64,000 bases of DNA from Escherichia phage T4, in the sequence record NC_000866.4. One strand, 5' to 3'. The position numbers and the translations under genes are program-made. Shown here in pieces: positions 1-55,155 of the stretch. Under the pieces are notes generated by a model, which saw only the letters and a list, made by a program, of their open reading frames with translations, searched no databases and was not told the DNA's origin. The number at the start of each line of letters is the position of its first letter. The first letter of the stretch is position 1.

Positions 1-603
1 TTTTGCCCAAAGCAGAAGTTTATAATTTCCTGGTTGCATTTTCATATTTGCCATATTGATAATGAAATTAAATGTATTTTCACCATCATAATCACCAAGA
101 GTCAAAGAATATTTAACACGGGTCAGAGCAGAATCTTCTACTTTATTAAAACCGTTAATTACGATTTTACCTTCTTTTACCGTGATAGCAATTGTATCAA
201 TTTGCAGACCACGAGATACACGCAACAGCTGTTGAAGGTCTTCAGCTTTAATTTCAGTAACAGCAGATGCTACCGGGAATGGAATTGGTTTATTAGGAGC
301 AACTACTGTACTCGGATCGGCTGCTGGCCAAAAAATTGTTGAGCGGGCATCAGCAATTTTAATATTTCCATCTTCTGACTGGGAAATTTCTGCATCATCA
401 TTAACTAAAGACAGAATACCGAGAAAACCGTTCAAATCGTAAATTGCTACATCAAAATCAATAACGTCAGAAATATTTGCTTCCGCATAAGTTGTACCAT
501 TAACTGCGCGAGTCATAATAAATTGACCGGATTTAAGCATAATACCAGAGTTAATAGTAGCGAAATTTTTAAGCAGAGCAGTAGTATCTTTAGACAGTTT
601 CAT
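1..603 (-). CDS. 45: gp45 sliding clamp, partial (C-terminus beyond window start)
   Basis: Reverse translation from ATG at 601-603 reads MKLSKDTTALLKNFATINSGIMLKSGQFIM..., matching T4 gp45 from memory; runs off the window edge so absent from ORF track. Confidence 0.85.
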   Translation of the reverse strand, partial: MKLSKDTTALLKNFATINSGIMLKSGQFIMTRAVNGTTYAEANISDVIDFDVAIYDLNGFLGILSLVNDDAEISQSEDGNIKIADARSTIFWPAADPSTVVAPNKPIPFPVASAVTEIKAEDLQQLLRVSRGLQIDTIAITVKEGKIVINGFNKVEDSALTRVKYSLTLGDYDGENTFNFIINMANMKMQPGNYKLLLWAK

Positions 604-34502: not shown

Positions 34503-35490
<988 letters not shown>

Positions 35491-40627: not shown

Positions 40628-40921
40628 TTACCATTTATGATGATACGTATTTACGATACATTCAAGACCCAAAGGATTCTTGAAAATATCATATTCAAGA
40701 GGACCTTTTTCTGTTTCAATAAAGAAATCAAAATTTACTGTATTAAATTTACGGTCTTCCTTTACTAATTTAACTTGAGAAGATGAACGATCAATGTAAA
40801 CCTTTTCAACTTCAAAACACGTTAAAATGCCATAATCATCAATCAAGGCTTTAGCTGCTTCTTGATCATATTTATATCCATTTTCAACGGATGATACTTT
40901 CGCATAAAGAATCATCATCAA
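40628..40921 (-). CDS. hypothetical protein (tRNA.2-like)
   Basis: 97 aa ORF upstream of tRNA cluster. Confidence 0.5.
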   Translation of the reverse strand: MMMILYAKVSSVENGYKYDQEAAKALIDDYGILTCFEVEKVYIDRSSSQVKLVKEDRKFNTVNFDFFIETEKGPLEYDIFKNPLGLECIVNTYHHKW

Positions 40922-42649: not shown

Positions 42650-43374
42650 TATAGTACCTTTAGTGTATTTTTAATTTTAGAAAAAAGTTCTTCAAGAGAA
42701 CCATCGTTTGTAATTACTAAATCGCCATCACGAATTGGCAATCCAGCTTCTGTAATATGTGTATCATTGGATTTTTGACCAGGACGAACTACATGAATTA
42801 CTGTAGCACCCATCGCCCTAGCCGCATCCATTTCATGATCTTGACGGGTATCAGGAACGATATAATAATCATAACCTGAGTTAAATTTATCAAGATAATC
42901 TAAAGCAAATAATTTTACCCAGTACATGCGGTCGAAGTTATTAACAATCAAATCCGTACCTAGGGCTTGCATCAGACGACGGACTGACCATTGATCTTCA
43001 ATATTATTTATAACGTCAGTAATCTTATTAAATGCTACGAAATTAACTGATTCTTTTCCTTCGTCATCAAAAACAAACACACCTTTAATTGGGCTTTTAC
43101 CATTAAGATAACAAAATGCTTGTTCCATAATCGTGATTACTTCTAATTTAGTCAGATTTAAATTAGTCTCACGATCATAGTCAATTCCTTCAAACTCTTT
43201 ACGAGTTAAGCAAGGATAGTCAGTGTTTGCTGCAAATACTCCCCATGCATAAGCCAATGCATCCTTAATAGGACCAGCAAGTTGGTATTTAACTGCAGAA
43301 TAATTGCTCATGATAAAATCAGCAGTAGTATCTTTTCCACTACGCTTTACACCGCTTAAAAAGATTAGTTTCAT
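42649..43374 (-). CDS. 1: gp1 deoxynucleoside monophosphate kinase
   Basis: Start trimmed to MKLIFLSGVKRSGKDTTADF (241 aa); P-loop. Confidence 0.9.
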
Positions 43375-44060: not shown

Positions 44061-44885
44061 TTAGATATTTGACCAGACTTTGTTTGCAGAGAAACGTTTT
44101 CCTTTTGAAACGAACTGCTGAAGTGGCATCAACACAACGTTCGCCCAGTCTTTCGGGGCGATTTCAACAAGGCTACCCATAATATTACCAGGTATATATG
44201 CCTTAATCATTTGGTCTGCACCCCTAAATCCTTTCACTTGACTCCAATCAATTTTTAATTTCGTTTTATTAGTAATAGTAGGTGTATTTGCATATTGCTT
44301 TAAAAGCTCTTCTAGGAATTGCTGACGAGCTTTAGGTGGAATATAGTGCAAGTTTAATCCGTACATTAAATTATGCTTACCTAAACCAAGGTAAATTATC
44401 AAAGGAAATTTATCCCAGTAAGGAAGAGTTTCCTTGTGTTTAGCATCATAAGCAAAAGCATATATTCGTCCCGGCTGCGGGCGAACAACTTTATGTCCTT
44501 TTACTTGCTTAATAGTTTCAGCAAACCACTTTCTGGTTTTATTATTAATTGCTGCGCCTTCATTACGAATTTTATCACGCAATGTTTGTCTGAATGAATT
44601 TATCATAAGCAGTTGTCTTTCTTGCTTATTGAGTTTATTCATTGGTTTTGATTCAAGTTTTTGAATCTTTTCAGCCGTTTTAATTCCTGAAGCATATTTT
44701 GACATTGCTGAAGTAAACGTAGAGTATTTGATTCCTCTTTCTTCAGCAAATTGCTTTCCTGTCATTCCTTTTGCTTTGGCCTTTTTATATTCAAGACCTA
44801 TCTGAATCCATTTCTTTTCGTTTAATGATTGCTTAACCTTTGGAACTTGGGGAGTGCTTTCATTAATTATTTGAAAAATAGCCAT
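44061..44885 (-). CDS. 2: gp2 DNA end protector protein
   Basis: 274 aa [16 protein letters not shown]...; T4 order 3-2-4. Confidence 0.85.
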
Positions 44886-45337
44886 TATGCCCCCTTAAAG
44901 CCAAGAGCTCGTAATCCATCTTCTGTTAGAATTCTAAATTTTATTCCACGCTTTTCAGCTAAAGATTGTGCTGCTTTCCATTTGTCAGTGTTCACAGACC
45001 AGGTATAAATTTCATTCATAAATCTTTTCTTCGCTGCGGTCGTTAGATGTGCTGGTTTAACTGGTGGTTGTGTTTCTTTTTTAGGTTTTATTTCAATAAA
45101 AAATTCTTGTCCAGAAGAATCTTTCATCCAAATATCCATGAAGTATCTACGTTTTTTCCCTTCTGCATTACAAAAATAAGGAATTACTGCTGTTTCACTA
45201 CCCCATGCAATAATTTCTGGATTTTTATCTAACCATTCAAAAAAGAATTTTTCCCAATTTGATCTATACGTAATTTTTTTAGGGTCACCTCTATACTTTG
45301 ATATATTTTTAGGAACCCATTTTCCAGAATATGCCAT
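44885..45337 (-). CDS. 4: gp4 head completion protein
   Basis: 150 aa; late promoter immediately upstream. Confidence 0.8.
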
Positions 45338-45348
45338 TGGATTCTCCT

Positions 45349-45356
45349 TATAAATA
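45349..45356 (+). promoter_or_regulatory. late promoter TATAAATA for gene 53
   Basis: Exact TATAAATA 29 bp upstream of gene 53 ATG. Confidence 0.7.
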
Positions 45357-45363
45357 GATAATA

Positions 45364-45371
45364 TATTTATA
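45364..45371 (-). promoter_or_regulatory. late promoter TATAAATA for gene 4
   Basis: Exact TATAAATA on minus strand upstream of gene 4; divergent partner of the gene 53 promoter. Confidence 0.7.
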
Positions 45372-45384
45372 AACAGGAGGGCCC

Positions 45385-45975
45385 ATGCTCTTTACATTTT
45401 TTGATCCGATTGAATATGCGGCCAAAACGGTGAATAAAAACGCGCCGACTATTCCTATGACAGATATTTTTAGAAACTATAAAGACTATTTTAAACGCGC
45501 TCTTGCGGGATACCGCTTACGTACTTATTATATTAAAGGTTCACCACGCCCGGAAGAATTAGCAAATGCTATATATGGAAATCCACAGCTGTATTGGGTT
45601 TTATTGATGTGTAATGATAATTATGACCCGTATTATGGATGGATTACTTCGCAAGAAGCTGCTTATCAAGCATCTATACAAAAATACAAAAACGTAGGTG
45701 GAGACCAAATAGTATATCATGTGAATGAGAACGGTGAAAAATTTTATAATTTAATATCATACGATGATAATCCATATGTTTGGTATGATAAAGGCGATAA
45801 AGCTAGAAAATATCCTCAATATGAAGGAGCGCTTGCTGCGGTCGATACGTATGAAGCTGCTGTTCTTGAAAATGAAAAACTTCGTCAAATAAAAATAATA
45901 GCAAAATCAGACATCAATTCATTTATGAACGACCTTATACGTATAATGGAGAAATCTTATGGAAATGATAAGTAA
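45385..45975 (+). CDS. 53: gp53 baseplate wedge protein
   Basis: 196 aa; late promoter TATAAATA at 45349-45356; precedes gene 5. Confidence 0.85.
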   Translation: MLFTFFDPIEYAAKTVNKNAPTIPMTDIFRNYKDYFKRALAGYRLRTYYIKGSPRPEELANAIYGNPQLYWVLLMCNDNYDPYYGWITSQEAAYQASIQKYKNVGGDQIVYHVNENGEKFYNLISYDDNPYVWYDKGDKARKYPQYEGALAAVDTYEAAVLENEKLRQIKIIAKSDINSFMNDLIRIMEKSYGNDK

Positions 45976-47686
45976 TAACCTTAATTGGTTTGTCGGTGTT
46001 GTTGAAGATAGAATGGACCCATTAAAATTAGGTCGTGTTCGTGTTCGTGTGGTTGGTCTGCATCCACCTCAAAGAGCACAAGGTGATGTAATGGGTATTC
46101 CAACTGAAAAATTACCATGGATGTCAGTTATTCAACCTATAACTTCTGCAGCAATGTCTGGAATTGGAGGTTCTGTTACTGGACCAGTAGAAGGAACTAG
46201 AGTTTATGGTCATTTTTTAGACAAATGGAAAACTAATGGAATTGTCCTTGGCACGTATGGTGGAATAGTTCGCGAAAAACCGAATAGACTTGAAGGATTT
46301 TCTGACCCAACTGGGCAGTATCCTAGACGTTTAGGAAATGATACTAACGTACTAAACCAAGGTGGAGAAGTAGGATATGATTCGTCTTCTAACGTTATCC
46401 AAGATAGTAACTTAGACACCGCAATAAATCCCGATGATAGACCGCTATCAGAGATTCCGACCGATGATAATCCAAATATGTCAATGGCTGAAATGCTTCG
46501 CCGTGATGAAGGATTAAGATTAAAAGTTTATTGGGATACCGAAGGATATCCGACAATTGGTATTGGTCATCTTATCATGAAGCAGCCAGTTCGTGATATG
46601 GCTCAAATTAATAAAGTTTTATCAAAACAAGTTGGTCGTGAAATTACAGGAAATCCAGGTTCTATTACAATGGAAGAGGCGACGACTTTATTTGAGCGTG
46701 ATTTGGCTGATATGCAACGGGACATTAAATCACATTCTAAAGTAGGACCAGTCTGGCAAGCTGTCAACCGTTCTCGTCAAATGGCGTTAGAAAATATGGC
46801 ATTTCAGATGGGTGTTGGTGGTGTAGCTAAATTTAACACAATGTTAACTGCTATGTTAGCAGGAGATTGGGAAAAAGCGTATAAAGCCGGTCGTGATTCA
46901 TTGTGGTATCAACAAACAAAAGGCCGTGCATCCCGTGTTACCATGATTATTCTTACGGGGAATTTGGAATCATATGGTGTTGAAGTGAAAACCCCAGCTA
47001 GGTCTCTATCAGCAATGGCTGCTACTGTAGCTAAATCTTCTGACCCTGCTGACCCTCCTATTCCAAATGACTCGAGAATTTTATTCAAAGAACCAGTTTC
47101 TTCATATAAAGGTGAATATCCTTATGTGCATACAATGGAAACTGAAAGCGGACATATTCAGGAATTTGATGATACCCCTGGGCAAGAACGATATAGATTA
47201 GTTCATCCAACTGGAACTTATGAAGAAGTATCACCATCAGGAAGAAGAACAAGAAAAACTGTTGATAATTTGTATGATATAACCAATGCTGATGGTAATT
47301 TTTTGGTAGCCGGTGATAAAAAGACTAACGTCGGTGGTTCAGAAATTTATTATAACATGGATAATCGTTTACATCAAATCGATGGAAGCAATACAATATT
47401 TGTACGTGGAGACGAAACGAAAACTGTTGAAGGTAATGGAACTATCCTAGTTAAAGGTAATGTTACTATTATAGTTGAAGGTAATGCTGACATTACAGTT
47501 AAAGGAGATGCTACCACTTTAGTTGAAGGAAATCAAACTAACACAGTAAATGGAAATCTTTCTTGGAAAGTTGCCGGGACAGTTGATTGGGATGTCGGTG
47601 GTGATTGGACAGAAAAAATGGCATCTATGAGTTCTATTTCATCTGGTCAATACACAATTGATGGATCGAGGATTGACATTGGCTAA
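45959..47686 (+). CDS. 5: gp5 baseplate hub / cell-puncturing device with lysozyme domain
   Basis: 575 aa; internal lysozyme domain MAEMLRRDEGLRLKVYWDTEGYPTIGIGHL paralogous to e; C-terminal VxGxxxxx beta-helix repeats. Confidence 0.95.
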   Translation: MEMISNNLNWFVGVVEDRMDPLKLGRVRVRVVGLHPPQRAQGDVMGIPTEKLPWMSVIQPITSAAMSGIGGSVTGPVEGTRVYGHFLDKWKTNGIVLGTYGGIVREKPNRLEGFSDPTGQYPRRLGNDTNVLNQGGEVGYDSSSNVIQDSNLDTAINPDDRPLSEIPTDDNPNMSMAEMLRRDEGLRLKVYWDTEGYPTIGIGHLIMKQPVRDMAQINKVLSKQVGREITGNPGSITMEEATTLFERDLADMQRDIKSHSKVGPVWQAVNRSRQMALENMAFQMGVGGVAKFNTMLTAMLAGDWEKAYKAGRDSLWYQQTKGRASRVTMIILTGNLESYGVEVKTPARSLSAMAATVAKSSDPADPPIPNDSRILFKEPVSSYKGEYPYVHTMETESGHIQEFDDTPGQERYRLVHPTGTYEEVSPSGRRTRKTVDNLYDITNADGNFLVAGDKKTNVGGSEIYYNMDNRLHQIDGSNTIFVRGDETKTVEGNGTILVKGNVTIIVEGNADITVKGDATTLVEGNQTNTVNGNLSWKVAGTVDWDVGGDWTEKMASMSSISSGQYTIDGSRIDIG

Positions 47687-48215
47687 TATACTTCCAATGA
47701 GCGCTGATTTAGGAGAATCCATGGAAGGTTCTTCTATCGACGTCACCTTTACCGCTCAATTAGAAACAGGTGAAACGTTAGTATCTATAAATATAACTAG
47801 TTACGAAGAAACTCCTGGGGTTTTAGTAGAAGAAAATCGCTTATATGGAACATATGAATCTGTATTTGGTTTCGGAAATGACGCGTTGAAATATCGTTTA
47901 GGCGATGAATTTAAAACTGCTGCTTCATGGGAAGAACTTCCTACTGATTCTGATACTCAGTTGTATTTGTGGAAAGCTCCTCAAAACCTCCAGAAGACAT
48001 TCACTTACGAAGTAACATTAATATATGACTACCAAGAACAAAGTGAATCTGGGGGTTCTGGCAGTAATTCTAGGTCATCTTCTGATACTACTGAACCGAC
48101 AGATCCTCCTGCTCCAGTAAGAAAAACTCTAGTTAAAAATTATACTAAAACTATAGTTGGAAATTGGAGTCGTTGGGCTAATAAACTGAGAAAATATGCC
48201 TATGCAAGACCATAA
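47658..48215 (+). CDS. 5.1: gp5.1-like protein
   Basis: ORF following gene 5; start uncertain. Confidence 0.55.
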   Translation: MMDRGLTLANILPMSADLGESMEGSSIDVTFTAQLETGETLVSINITSYEETPGVLVEENRLYGTYESVFGFGNDALKYRLGDEFKTAASWEELPTDSDTQLYLWKAPQNLQKTFTYEVTLIYDYQEQSESGGSGSNSRSSSDTTEPTDPPAPVRKTLVKNYTKTIVGNWSRWANKLRKYAYARP

Positions 48216-54158: not shown

Positions 54159-55155
54159 TTCAAGTGTTATCTATCGTGCGATAGTTACTTCAAAATTTAG
54201 AACAGAAAAAATGTTGAATTTTTATAATTCAATTGGAAGTGGTCCGGATAAAAACACTATCTTTATCACATTTGGAAGATCAGAACCGTGGTCATCAAAT
54301 GAAAATGAGGTGGGCTTTGCCCCACCTTATCCAACCGATTCTGTATTAGGCGTAACTGACATGTGGACGCATATGATGGGAACAGTAAAAGTTCTTCCAT
54401 CAATGCTTGATGCTGTTATTCCTCGCAGAGATTGGGGAGATACTAGATATCCGGATCCATACACATTTAGAATTAACGATATTGTAGTGTGTAACTCAGC
54501 TCCTTACAACGCTACTGAATCAGGCGCTGGTTGGTTAGTGTATCGTTGTTTAGATGTTCCTGATACCGGAATGTGTTCAATAGCATCTTTAACTGATAAA
54601 GATGAATGCCTTAAGTTAGGTGGAAAATGGACTCCTTCTGCTAGGTCAATGACTCCGCCTGAAGGTCGAGGAGATGCTGAAGGAACAATTGAACCCGGAG
54701 ACGGGTATGTGTGGGAATATCTATTTGAGATTCCGCCTGATGTATCTATAAATAGATGCACGAATGAATATATCGTGGTTCCTTGGCCTGAGGAATTAAA
54801 AGAAGACCCGACTAGATGGGGATATGAAGATAATCTCACTTGGCAACAAGATGATTTTGGATTAATTTACCGTGTTAAGGCAAATACTATCCGTTTTAAA
54901 GCATATTTAGATTCAGTTTATTTTCCTGAAGCTGCATTACCAGGAAATAAAGGATTTAGACAAATATCAATAATCACGAATCCTCTTGAAGCTAAAGCTC
55001 ATCCAAATGACCCAAACGTTAAAGCTGAAAAGGATTATTATGACCCAGAAGATTTAATGAGGCATTCGGGTGAAATGATTTATATGGAAAATAGGCCACC
55101 TATTATTATGGCAATGGATCAAACAGAAGAAATCAATATTCTGTTTACATTTTAA
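54151..55155 (+). CDS. 8: gp8 baseplate wedge protein
   Basis: 334 aa. Confidence 0.9.
   Translation: MNDSSVIYRAIVTSKFRTEKMLNFYNSIGSGPDKNTIFITFGRSEPWSSNENEVGFAPPYPTDSVLGVTDMWTHMMGTVKVLPSMLDAVIPRRDWGDTRYPDPYTFRINDIVVCNSAPYNATESGAGWLVYRCLDVPDTGMCSIASLTDKDECLKLGGKWTPSARSMTPPEGRGDAEGTIEPGDGYVWEYLFEIPPDVSINRCTNEYIVVPWPEELKEDPTRWGYEDNLTWQQDDFGLIYRVKANTIRFKAYLDSVYFPEAALPGNKGFRQISIITNPLEAKAHPNDPNVKAEKDYYDPEDLMRHSGEMIYMENRPPIIMAMDQTEEINILFTF

What the first reader, a model, noticed from the sequence alone, without database searches (positions are those of the whole stretch)
45349..45371. Back-to-back late promoters between genes 4 and 53
Exact TATAAATA elements occur on both strands within 23 bp (plus 45349-45356, minus 45364-45371) at the switch between leftward and rightward late genes. 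They mark the boundary where gene orientation flips.
Basis: seen in the sequence. Interest (0 to 1): 0.25.

Follow-up and report, generated by a model that had tools for sequence, protein, structure and literature searches.

The report
Known divergent T4 late promoter pair
The two TATAAATA boxes are the long-annotated late promoters of phage T4 genes 53 and 4, packed head-to-head into a 47-bp gap. This is textbook T4 biology rather than a discovery, although the same arrangement turns out to be conserved across very distant T4-like phages.

Summary
The window is phage T4 (NC_000866.4 32001-96000). Exact TATAAATA boxes lie at 45349-45356 (+) and 45364-45371 (-), in the 47-bp gap between gene 4 (head completion, leftward) and gene 53 (baseplate wedge, rightward). 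This gap is the only orientation switch in the 64 kb. Both boxes were deposited as 'late promoter' in the 1989 T4 record X15728.

TATAAATA is not enriched in the window overall (11 copies against 11.25 expected), but placement is far from random:
- 7 of 11 copies lie 13-28 nt upstream of a co-oriented start codon.
- None is antisense to a gene body.
- The chance of both strands carrying a box in one 47-bp gap is about 5e-5.

The T4T genome has exactly 32 copies, the number of perfect-consensus late promoters listed in the literature. In 52 of 64 non-redundant T4-like loci, boxes in both orientations lie upstream of gene 4, against 0.26% of control windows, while the spacer sequence varies freely. 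Published omics class both genes as late RNA and late protein.

One correction: the promoters are interdigitated, not strictly back-to-back. Each box lies in the other gene's leader, the predicted start sites are 2-5 bp apart, and the polymerase footprints overlap almost completely. No 5'-end mapping could be retrieved here. Verdict: real, correctly interpreted, already known, low interest.

The parts
45349..45356 (+). Late promoter box of gene 53 (P53): TATAAATA, the gp55-recognised -10-like element. The nominal +1 is at 45362, with A residues at 45361 and 45363.
   Evidence: Exact match. Annotated 'late promoter' in X15728.1 at record 420-427. It lies 28 nt upstream of the gene 53 ATG. It is conserved in relatives. 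The nearest NATAAATA upstream on the + strand is more than 5 kb away.
45364..45371 (-). Late promoter box of gene 4 (P4): TATAAATA on the - strand. The nominal +1 is at 45358, with an A at 45359 on the - strand. It presumably drives the overlapping genes 4 and 2.
   Evidence: Exact match. Annotated 'late promoter' on the complement strand in X15728.1 at record 435-442. It lies 26 nt upstream of the gene 4 ATG. It is conserved in relatives. The only - strand NATAAATA to its right in the window is 13 kb away.
45357..45363 (.). Shared 7-bp AT-rich spacer (GATAATA). It is the segment downstream of both boxes that melts on promoter opening, and it contains both predicted start sites.
   Evidence: 22 of 23 bp across 45349-45371 are A/T. 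Late promoters have an AT-rich segment just downstream of the box (PMC2988020). In relatives the spacer varies in sequence (42 distinct among 46) and in length (0-36 bp) but remains 76% AT.
45344..45349 (-). Shine-Dalgarno sequence of gene 4 (AAGGAG on the - strand). It abuts the P53 box and overlaps it by one base.
   Evidence: Read directly from the sequence. It lies 6 nt upstream of the gene 4 ATG at 45337.
45375..45380 (+). Shine-Dalgarno sequence of gene 53 (AGGAGG), 3 nt downstream of the P4 box complement.
   Evidence: Read directly from the sequence. It lies 4 nt upstream of the gene 53 ATG at 45385.
45338..45385 (.). Extended imperfect inverted repeat: SD complement, box, 7-nt loop, box complement, SD. 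RNA reading through the gap in either direction could fold it into a hairpin that sequesters the SD. The late start sites lie in the loop. Function unproven.
   Evidence: Inverted repeat at 45348-45359 / 45361-45372, 92% complementary. The + strand RNA folds at -15.1 kcal/mol (z = -2.63) and the - strand RNA at -12.3 kcal/mol (z = -0.97). The proven gene e hairpin in this window, for comparison, folds at -14.9 kcal/mol (z = -4.31).
44885..45337 (-). Gene 4 (head completion protein, 150 aa; formerly gene 50/65), first gene of the leftward late unit.
   Evidence: ORF. Annotation in T4T and X14845. Late RNA and late protein in vivo.
45385..45975 (+). Gene 53 (baseplate wedge subunit, 196 aa), first gene of the rightward late block 53-5-...-8.
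   Evidence: ORF. Annotation. Late RNA and late protein in vivo.

Best explanation
These are two genuine, overlapping, divergently oriented phage T4 late promoters. P53 drives the rightward baseplate block (53, 5, ...). P4 drives the leftward genes 4 and 2.

Established for T4 late promoters in general:
- Each promoter consists only of the octamer TATAAATA at -13..-6. There is no -35 element.
- E. coli RNA polymerase core carrying the T4 sigma-like gp55 recognises the box on the non-template strand as the DNA opens, flipping bases -12, -9 and -8.
- gp33 and the DNA-loaded sliding clamp gp45 dock at the upstream end and activate initiation.
- The clamp's orientation on DNA decides which polarity it can activate.

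Inferred for this pair:
- Starts are at about 45361-45363 (+) and 45358-45359 (-), giving 24-nt and 22-nt leaders that each carry a strong Shine-Dalgarno sequence.
- The gap is only 47 bp and each promoter needs about 26-28 nt between box and ATG. The boxes therefore have to cross, so each box is copied into the other gene's leader.
- The nominal footprints are 45314-45382 and 45338-45406, and the melted regions are 45350-45363 and 45357-45370. They overlap almost fully. Only one polymerase can occupy the site at a time, and the two promoters use clamps of opposite orientation.
For: - Identity: the window is T4, 100% identical to OZ209023.1. Its coordinates plus 32000 equal NC_000866.4 coordinates.
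- Prior annotation: X15728.1 marks both octamers as late promoters, and fPS-65 does likewise.
- Genome-wide count: T4T has exactly 32 exact TATAAATA copies. That equals the 32 perfect-consensus sites among the 50 listed T4 late promoters (PMC2988020).
- Placement: 26 and 28 nt from box to ATG, within the 13-28 nt range of the other six gene-proximal copies in the window. These include the mapped gene e promoters.
- Flank composition: the flank downstream of each box is AT-rich, and 22 of 23 bp across the region are A/T.
- Chance: about 5e-5 for both strands in one 47-bp gap.
- No alternative promoter: there is no sigma-70-like hit in the gap. There is no other NATAAATA within kilobases upstream on either strand.
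- Conservation in named genera: both boxes are retained in eight genera with non-conserved spacers.
- Conservation at scale: 52 of 64 non-redundant IMG/VR loci carry boxes in both orientations within 90 nt of gene 4, against 0.26% of 1133 control windows. 47 of the 52 are crossed.
- Trans-acting factors: genes 45 and 55 are in the window and gene 33 is elsewhere in T4T.
- In vivo timing: genes 3, 4, 53, 5, 5.1, 5.4, 6 and 7 are late RNA and late protein.
- Mechanism: PMC2988020 and PMC7892883.
Against: - No primer-extension or dRNA-seq 5' end for either promoter could be retrieved. The T4 dRNA-seq TSS table (GSE255091) is not held.
- The review itself cautions that not all 50 listed sites have been shown to be active in vivo.
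- The octamer is no more frequent in the window than chance, and one-mismatch variants are also at chance level. The case therefore rests on placement and conservation.
- Gene 2, just downstream of gene 4, is classed 'middle RNA', so some transcription other than P4 may enter that unit.
- Mutual exclusion and the clamp-polarity consequences are inferred from nominal footprints, not measured.
Confidence: 0.9

Rival explanations
1. A dual-use element. Besides acting as promoters, the inverted repeat (boxes plus the two Shine-Dalgarno sequences) forms a hairpin in any RNA reading through the gap from upstream. The hairpin would sequester the SD of gene 4 (or 53), so that only late transcripts starting in the loop are translated. 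This is the mechanism proven for T4 genes e, soc, 49 and I-TevI.
For: - The predicted hairpins pair the SD: + strand -15.1 kcal/mol (z = -2.63, 5 of 200 shuffles as good) and - strand -12.3 kcal/mol.
- Their stability is similar to the proven gene e hairpin in the same window (-14.9 kcal/mol).
- The predicted late starts fall in the 7-nt loop.
- T4 early and middle transcription runs leftward. Early promoters are annotated on the - strand inside gene 5. No - strand terminator-like site was found between 46000 and gene 4.
- The omics paper notes that many late proteins are encoded on early mRNAs.
Against: - The - strand hairpin, which is the relevant polarity for gene 4, is not better than shuffles (z = -0.97, 29 of 200).
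- The complementarity follows automatically from two inverted boxes plus two inverted SDs, so conservation cannot test it independently.
- Gene 4 RNA is classed late, meaning below 10% of its maximum before 7 min, so there is little early read-through to silence.
- All early and middle transcripts are leftward, so the better + strand hairpin has no obvious read-through substrate.
- Genes 4 and 53 are absent from the review's list of SD-sequestering structures.
Confidence: 0.12
2. Only one of the two boxes is a working promoter. The other is a passenger of a palindrome kept for another reason, such as a protein-binding site or DNA structure.
For: The region is a near-perfect inverted repeat. 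Not all listed late promoters have been verified in vivo. In 9 of 64 distant loci only the box pointing to the partner gene was detected.
Against: - Each gene is the first of its late unit and has no other candidate late promoter for kilobases.
- Both genes are transcribed late.
- In relatives the two boxes keep their own distance to their own start codon while the spacer changes from 0 to 36 bp. This breaks any fixed palindrome geometry.
- In KVP40-like phages the boxes are back-to-back rather than crossed, yet both are still present.
Confidence: 0.05
3. A chance co-occurrence of an AT-rich octamer in AT-rich intergenic DNA, without function.
For: The window-wide count equals the shuffle expectation (11 against 11.25). 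The gap is 68% A+T.
Against: - P is about 5e-5 for both strands in a 47-bp gap.
- Orientation and position are non-random.
- The pair is conserved in 81% of non-redundant divergent loci, against 0.26% of control windows.
- It has been annotated as a promoter pair since 1989.
Confidence: 0.01

Closest known systems
Canonical T4 late promoters (for example P23, the gene 23 promoter used for biochemistry and cryo-EM)
   Same: Identical 8-bp TATAAATA element, no -35 element, an AT-rich segment downstream of the box, and placement about 25 nt upstream of a late structural gene.
   Different: Here two such promoters are interdigitated on opposite strands within 23 bp. The footprints, the melted regions and the upstream clamp-docking DNA of one promoter are the transcribed region of the other. 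This pair has not been studied biochemically, as far as the held literature shows.
T4 26|51 and inh|segE divergent late promoter pairs (outside the window)
   Same: These are the other two T4 junctions where late genes diverge across a gap of about 50 bp. Both carry opposite-strand boxes. At 26|51 the boxes form the palindrome TATTTATAAATA (T4T 116462 on - and 116466 on +). At inh|segE, TATAAATA (+) and AATAAATA (-) are crossed with a 6-bp spacer. From memory, not verified here: Scarlato et al. 1989 (Virology) showed that overlapping late promoters direct divergent transcription at genes 26/51.
   Different: At 26|51 the boxes overlap by 4 bp in true back-to-back order. At 4|53 they are crossed with a 7-bp spacer, so each box is transcribed into the other gene's leader.
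Tandem late promoters plus SD-sequestering hairpin of T4 gene e (lysozyme)
   Same: [quoted passage not shown] A hairpin of similar stability (-14.9 kcal/mol) has a 5' arm that contains a box, and late starts remove it.
   Different: In gene e both boxes face the same way. The hairpin is strongly non-random (z = -4.31) and experimentally proven. Early read-through is documented. At 4|53 the hairpin is a by-product of the divergent design, its statistics are weak, and gene 4 RNA is late-class.
Overlapping divergent sigma-70 promoters of bacteria (Beck and Warren's back-to-back / overlapping / face-to-face classes; recalled from memory)
   Same: Two promoters on opposite strands whose polymerase-binding sites overlap, so that occupancy is mutually exclusive.
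   Different: These promoters have no -35 element and no site-specific regulator. Activation comes from a sliding clamp whose orientation on DNA sets polarity. Any choice between the two would depend on clamp orientation rather than on a bound repressor or activator.

Membership tests
T4-type late promoter (gp55/gp33/gp45-dependent) | Octamer TATAAATA (a variant at -13 is tolerated) serving as the -10-like element | tested here: met
   Exact octamer on + at 45349-56 and on - at 45364-71. Consensus definition from PMC1524935 and PMC2988020.
T4-type late promoter (gp55/gp33/gp45-dependent) | AT-rich segment between the box and the start site, and no conserved -35 element | tested here: met
   The -5..-1 segments are GATAA (P53) and TATTA (P4), and 22 of 23 bp of the region are A/T. 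No sigma-70-type promoter was called in the gap.
T4-type late promoter (gp55/gp33/gp45-dependent) | Located 5' of, and co-oriented with, a late gene at a typical distance | tested here: met
   28 nt to the gene 53 ATG and 26 nt to the gene 4 ATG. Other gene-proximal copies in the window lie at 13-26 nt. Both genes are late RNA and late protein.
T4-type late promoter (gp55/gp33/gp45-dependent) | The genome encodes the late transcription machinery (gp55, gp33, gp45) | tested here: met
   Genes 45 and 55 are in the window. Gene 33 is at T4T 149206-149544.
T4-type late promoter (gp55/gp33/gp45-dependent) | Conservation of the box at the orthologous position in related phages | tested here: met
   Both boxes are present in eight genera. 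52 of 64 non-redundant loci have both orientations, against 0.26% of control windows.
T4-type late promoter (gp55/gp33/gp45-dependent) | A primary RNA 5' end about 6 nt downstream of the box that appears late and depends on genes 55 and 33 | not testable with these tools
   dRNA-seq of T4 exists (150 TSSs, 47 of them late; GSE255091), but the TSS table is not held. No paper in the library maps these ends.
Overlapping divergent promoter pair | Opposite-strand promoters whose polymerase footprints overlap, with transcripts running apart | tested here: met
   The nominal +1 positions are 45362 (+) and 45358 (-). The nominal footprints are 45327-45382 and 45338-45393, or 45314-45382 and 45338-45406 with gp45 (using footprint data). 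The geometry is computed, not measured.
Strict 'back-to-back' divergent promoters (non-overlapping, boxes between the two start sites) | Each box lies upstream of both start sites, and neither box is transcribed | tested here: not met
   The order is P53 box, P4 start, P53 start, P4 box. Each box falls within the other gene's 5' leader.
SD-sequestering leader hairpin relieved by an internal late start (genes e, soc, 49, I-TevI) | A stable, non-random hairpin pairing the SD or AUG in read-through RNA, with the late start removing its 5' arm | tested here: inconclusive
   The hairpins pair the SD and the late starts lie in the loop. The z-scores are -2.63 (+ strand) but only -0.97 (- strand), against -4.31 for gene e. 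The complementarity is forced by the divergent design.
SD-sequestering leader hairpin relieved by an internal late start (genes e, soc, 49, I-TevI) | Documented early or middle read-through transcription of the late gene without translation | tested here: not met
   Genes 4 and 53 are classed late at the RNA level. Neither is listed among such structures in PMC3014915.

The most novel reading that the evidence does not exclude
The crossed design may be more than compaction, in one or both of two ways.

(a) The inverted boxes and SDs could form a leader hairpin that keeps gene 4 (and 53) untranslated on any read-through RNA until late starts inside the loop appear. That would add a bidirectional case to the e/soc/49/I-TevI class.

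(b) The two promoters share one melting region and need clamps of opposite orientation. The site could therefore act as a polarity-sensitive toggle, in which the head-completion versus baseplate output ratio reflects which strand carries nicks or primer ends, and hence the direction of replication from nearby oriE in gene 5.
Probability: 0.12. Interest if true: 0.4.

Novelty: already known. Interest (0 to 1): 0.1.

Why it matters
For T4 itself this matters little. The two promoters have been in the sequence databases since 1989 and belong to the classic set of late promoters.

What this check adds is modest:
- The pair is interdigitated rather than back-to-back, so occupancy must be mutually exclusive.
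- A divergent late-promoter pair upstream of gene 4 is an ancient, widely conserved feature of T4-like phages. It is kept even where the divergent partner gene is 48 instead of 53.

The conserved pair could serve as an annotation landmark for late promoters in uncultured T4-like genomes. It could also be a natural test bed for how an orientation-dependent sliding-clamp activator chooses between two overlapping promoters.

Tried and rejected
- Reference record: I looked for T4 reference records with promoter features. AF158101 and NC_000866 are not in the collection. I used X15728.1, T4T and fPS-65 instead.
- Miller et al. 2003 (PMC150520) is not held.
- Direct 5'-end evidence:
  - No held paper combines gene 53 with 'late promoter'.
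  - The T4 dRNA-seq preprint holds only a PDF supplement without the TSS table.
  - The DksA paper maps other promoters.
- The remembered 26/51 'overlapping promoters' paper was not found by title, so it is cited from memory only.
- Raw motif enrichment is not significant for exact or one-mismatch matches, so that route was abandoned in favour of placement, orientation and conservation.
- A sigma-70 promoter or an intrinsic terminator in the gap:
  - No promoter was called.
  - The single terminator-like hit (45376-45393) is within chance and folds weakly (-6.6 kcal/mol, z = -1.0). Rejected.
- The hairpin hypothesis was tested by folding, by a positive control and by literature and omics checks. 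It stays unproven and rather unlikely.
- My first orientation count split the window at 45360 and scored the pair itself as 'antisense'. That is a consequence of the crossed geometry, not of true antisense promoters.
- T4T coordinates differ from the window by 0-11 nt because of indels. Gene positions were remapped before distances were measured.

Full report
**Identity of the window.** The 1.2 kb around the finding is 100% identical to Escherichia phage T4 (OZ209023.1) and 98-99% identical to hundreds of Tequatrovirus genomes. The ORFs are gene 4 (head completion, 150 aa, 44885-45337, - strand), gene 53 (baseplate wedge, 196 aa, 45385-45975, +) and gene 5 (45959-47686, +). Coordinates in a published T4 table (gene 4 at 76885-77337, gene 53 at 77385-77975 in NC_000866.4) equal window coordinates plus 32000. 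The window is therefore NC_000866.4 32001-96000, running from gene 45 to gene 15.

**The observation.** TATAAATA is at 45349-45356 on the + strand. TATTTATA, which reads TATAAATA on the - strand, is at 45364-45371. Both are inside the 47-bp gap between the two start codons. Apart from the tiny 55.7 and the repEA/repEB ORFs inside gene 5, every annotated gene left of the gap is leftward and every gene right of it is rightward. The gap is thus the single orientation switch in the 64 kb.

**Chance.** The octamer is not over-represented: 11 copies against 11.25 +/- 3.45 in dinucleotide-preserving shuffles. One-mismatch variants are also at chance (241 against 230). Position and orientation carry the signal. 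Gene coordinates were first remapped from T4T, which differs from the window by small indels. After that:
- Six of the 11 copies are fully intergenic although only 4.56% of the window is intergenic (binomial P = 3.4e-6). A seventh lies in the nrdD intron, 18 nt before I-TevII.
- Those seven lie 13-28 nt upstream of a co-oriented start codon: I-TevII, rI.1, gene e (twice), 53, 4 and 9.
- The other four are intragenic but in the sense orientation.
- Outside this pair there are nine sense and no antisense copies, where Markov models of order 1-3 predict 4.9-6.0 antisense copies.
- The probability that one 47-bp gap of this composition carries the octamer on both strands is 4.5e-5 by composition and 7.5e-5 by shuffling the gap.

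**Prior knowledge.** The old T4 record X15728.1 ('genes 50/4, 65, 53, 5 and 6') carries 'late promoter' features at record 420-427 (+) and 435-442 (complement). These map exactly onto the two octamers. The record of the close relative Yersinia phage fPS-65 marks both as predicted late promoters. The Geiduschek-Kassavetis review states that 50 late promoter sites are listed for T4, 32 of them with a perfect consensus. The complete T4T genome contains exactly 32 exact TATAAATA copies, so every exact copy, including these two, is evidently in that list. The finding is therefore already known.

**In vivo timing.** In time-resolved dual RNA-seq and proteomics of T4 infection, genes 3, 4, 53, 5, 5.1, 5.4, 6 and 7 are 'late-RNA_late-Protein'. 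Gene 2 is 'middle-RNA_late-Protein' (PMC9697503, Tables S2 and S4). Each of genes 4 and 53 is the first gene of its unit. No other NATAAATA lies upstream on the relevant strand for 5-13 kb, and no sigma-70-like promoter is called in the gap. The two boxes are the only plausible sources of these late RNAs. I could not retrieve mapped 5' ends. A T4 dRNA-seq study reports 150 phage start sites, 47 of them late, but its table is not held.

**Geometry.** The box occupies -13 to -6 (PMC1524935). The nominal +1 of P53 is 45362, with A residues at 45361 and 45363. The nominal +1 of P4 is 45358, with an A at 45359 on the - strand. From left to right the order is P53 box, P4 start, P53 start, P4 box.
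- The transcripts run apart and are predicted not to overlap.
- Each box is copied, as its complement UAUUUAUA, into the other gene's 22-24 nt leader.
- The gene 4 Shine-Dalgarno sequence overlaps the first base of the P53 box.
- gp55 reads flipped non-template bases at -12, -9 and -8 of the opened bubble (PMC7892883). gp45 docks at the upstream end and extends the footprint by 13 bp (PMC2988020).
- The nominal complexes cover 45314-45382 and 45338-45406, with bubbles at 45350-45363 and 45357-45370.

Simultaneous occupancy is therefore sterically implausible. This is an inference from nominal footprints, not a measurement. 'Back-to-back' in the strict sense is not met; 'overlapping divergent' is.

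**Why the boxes cross.** Each promoter needs about 26-28 nt from box to ATG, made up of 6 nt to the start plus a leader with an SD. Two such promoters cannot sit back-to-back in 47 bp. For crossed boxes, start(+) minus start(-) equals 11 minus the spacer length. T4's 7-bp spacer gives 4.

**Conservation.** I fetched the gene 4 upstream region from annotated relatives and displayed the gaps.
- The divergent 53|4 arrangement has gaps of 44-61 bp. Both boxes are present, exact or with the tolerated -13 variant, in crossed order.
- This holds in Tequatrovirus, Mosigvirus, Winklervirus, Jiaodavirus, Gaprivervirus, Lazarusvirus (Acinetobacter), Krischvirus (RB49-like) and a Shewanella phage.
- The spacer differs in sequence and length (2-15 bp).
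- In a KVP40-like Vibrio phage the partner gene is 48, the gap is 68 bp, and CTAAATA-type boxes stand truly back-to-back.
- In RB43-like and Slopekvirus phages only the box facing gene 53 is clear.
- In 44RR2.8t, gene 4 follows the co-oriented gene 5.1.

A scan of IMG/VR with an alignment of 14 gp4 proteins gave 80 loci at 42-89% identity.
- 72 of 79 usable loci have a divergent ORF upstream.
- Among 64 non-redundant divergent loci, 52 (81%) carry NATAAATA or NCTAAATA boxes in both orientations within 90 nt of gene 4. This compares with 0.26% of 1133 control coding windows from the same loci.
- 47 are crossed, 3 are back-to-back and 2 overlap. Spacers range from 0 to 36 bp (median 12), with 42 distinct sequences among 46, at 76% A+T.

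This is a clear phylogenetic footprint of two independent promoter elements rather than of a fixed palindrome.

**Other such pairs in T4.** Genome-wide, only two exact opposite-strand pairs lie within 150 bp of each other: 4|53 and 26|51. At 26|51 the boxes form the palindrome TATTTATAAATA in a 50-bp gap. A third divergent late junction, inh|segE (49-bp gap), has TATAAATA and AATAAATA crossed with a 6-bp spacer. Bidirectional late promoters are thus T4's standard solution wherever late genes diverge. I recall a 1989 paper on overlapping divergent late promoters at 26/51 but could not find it in the library.

**The hairpin idea.** The boxes and the two SDs form an extended inverted repeat.
- RNA reading through the gap would fold into a hairpin that pairs the SD: -15.1 kcal/mol (z = -2.63) for the + strand and -12.3 kcal/mol (z = -0.97) for the - strand. 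The predicted late starts fall in the loop.
- This resembles the proven gene e structure in this same window (-14.9 kcal/mol, z = -4.31).
- Against it: the complementarity follows automatically from the divergent design. The polarity that matters for gene 4, the leftward direction of all early and middle transcription, gives the weaker statistic. Gene 4 RNA is late-class. Genes 4 and 53 are not among the known cases.

I rate this, together with the idea of a clamp-polarity toggle, at about 0.12.

**Verdict.** The feature is already known. Interest is low (0.1). The decisive missing piece is a look at late primary 5' ends at NC_000866.4 77358-77363 on both strands in the public dRNA-seq data.

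Noticed in passing
window, whole (exact TATAAATA copies listed): Outside the 4|53 pair, TATAAATA never occurs antisense to the local genes: 9 sense and 0 antisense copies, against 4.9-6.0 antisense copies expected from Markov models. The total count still equals chance. This suggests selection against stray antisense late promoters, balanced by the functional sense copies.
   Followed up: partly
window 35011-35018 and 35024-35031 (- strand), hairpin about 34994-35033: Tandem exact late promoter boxes lie 13 and 26 nt upstream of gene e (lysozyme). A strongly non-random SD-sequestering hairpin (-14.9 kcal/mol, z = -4.31) forms in read-through RNA. This is the classic, already published gene e translational control, used here as a positive control.
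   Followed up: yes
window 45478-45485 (+), inside gene 53: X15728.1 annotates a third 'late promoter' here. The sequence is TATAAAGA, a one-mismatch variant. Such variants occur 241 times in the window, at chance level, so the sequence alone gives it no support.
   Followed up: partly
window 44982-45010 (+) and 45047-45232 (+), inside gene 4 on the opposite strand: X15728.1 annotates a rightward 'early promoter' (TTGTCA, 18-nt spacer, TAAATT; 9 of 12 matches in the scan) and a 61-aa ORF 'gp65' antisense to gene 4. Modern T4 annotation drops both. A rightward early promoter would contradict the rule that all early and middle T4 transcripts are leftward.
   Followed up: partly
window 40869-40876 (-), 43005-43012 (-), 47786-47793 (+), 54747-54754 (+): Four exact TATAAATA copies are intragenic but in the sense orientation. 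They lie in trna.2, in gene 1 (355 nt upstream of 57A), in 5.1 (402 nt upstream of segC) and in gene 8 (464 nt upstream of gene 9). They may be internal late promoters for downstream genes. Since T4T has exactly 32 copies genome-wide, they are probably in the published list.
   Followed up: no
T4T (HM137666.1) 116453-116473 and 112032-112053, outside the window (loci L102): Two more bidirectional late-promoter junctions. At 26|51 the boxes form an overlapping palindrome, TATTTATAAATA. At inh|segE, TATAAATA and AATAAATA are crossed with a 6-bp spacer. Both lie in gaps of about 50 bp, like 4|53.
   Followed up: partly
window 45376-45393 (+): A terminator-like hairpin (GGAGGGC-CCAT-GCTCTTT followed by a T-run) covers the SD and AUG of gene 53. 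It also forms in the predicted late leader (-6.6 kcal/mol), but it is no better than shuffles (z = -1.0), and one such site per 1.2 kb is expected by chance.
   Followed up: yes
loci L014 (Vibrio phage D486), L019 (P-RSM4), L020 (SFP10): In KVP40-like, cyanophage and ViI-like (Ackermannviridae) genomes, gene 4 is still the first gene of a divergent pair. The partner is the baseplate tail-tube cap gene 48 rather than 53. The divergent head-completion/baseplate junction has therefore outlived the exchange of the partner gene.
   Followed up: partly
window 47348-47377 and 47468-47497 (- strand, inside gene 5); repEB 45981-46118 and repEA about 47085-47237 (-): Leftward early promoters and the small repEA/repEB ORFs of replication origin oriE lie antisense within gene 5, about 2 kb upstream of gene 4 on the same strand. 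No - strand terminator-like site was found between 46000 and gene 4; the stretch 46000-47348 was not scanned. Early oriE transcripts might therefore reach the 4|53 gap.
   Followed up: no
T4T (HM137666.1) 71894-71926 and 144443-144476, outside or at the edge of the analysed region: Opposite-strand NATAAATA pairs with spacers of 17-18 bp flank the starts of segB and I-TevI. I-TevI, and tentatively segB, are reported to have RBS-sequestering hairpins. Inverted late-box-like sequences may be a recurrent way to build such hairpins.
   Followed up: no
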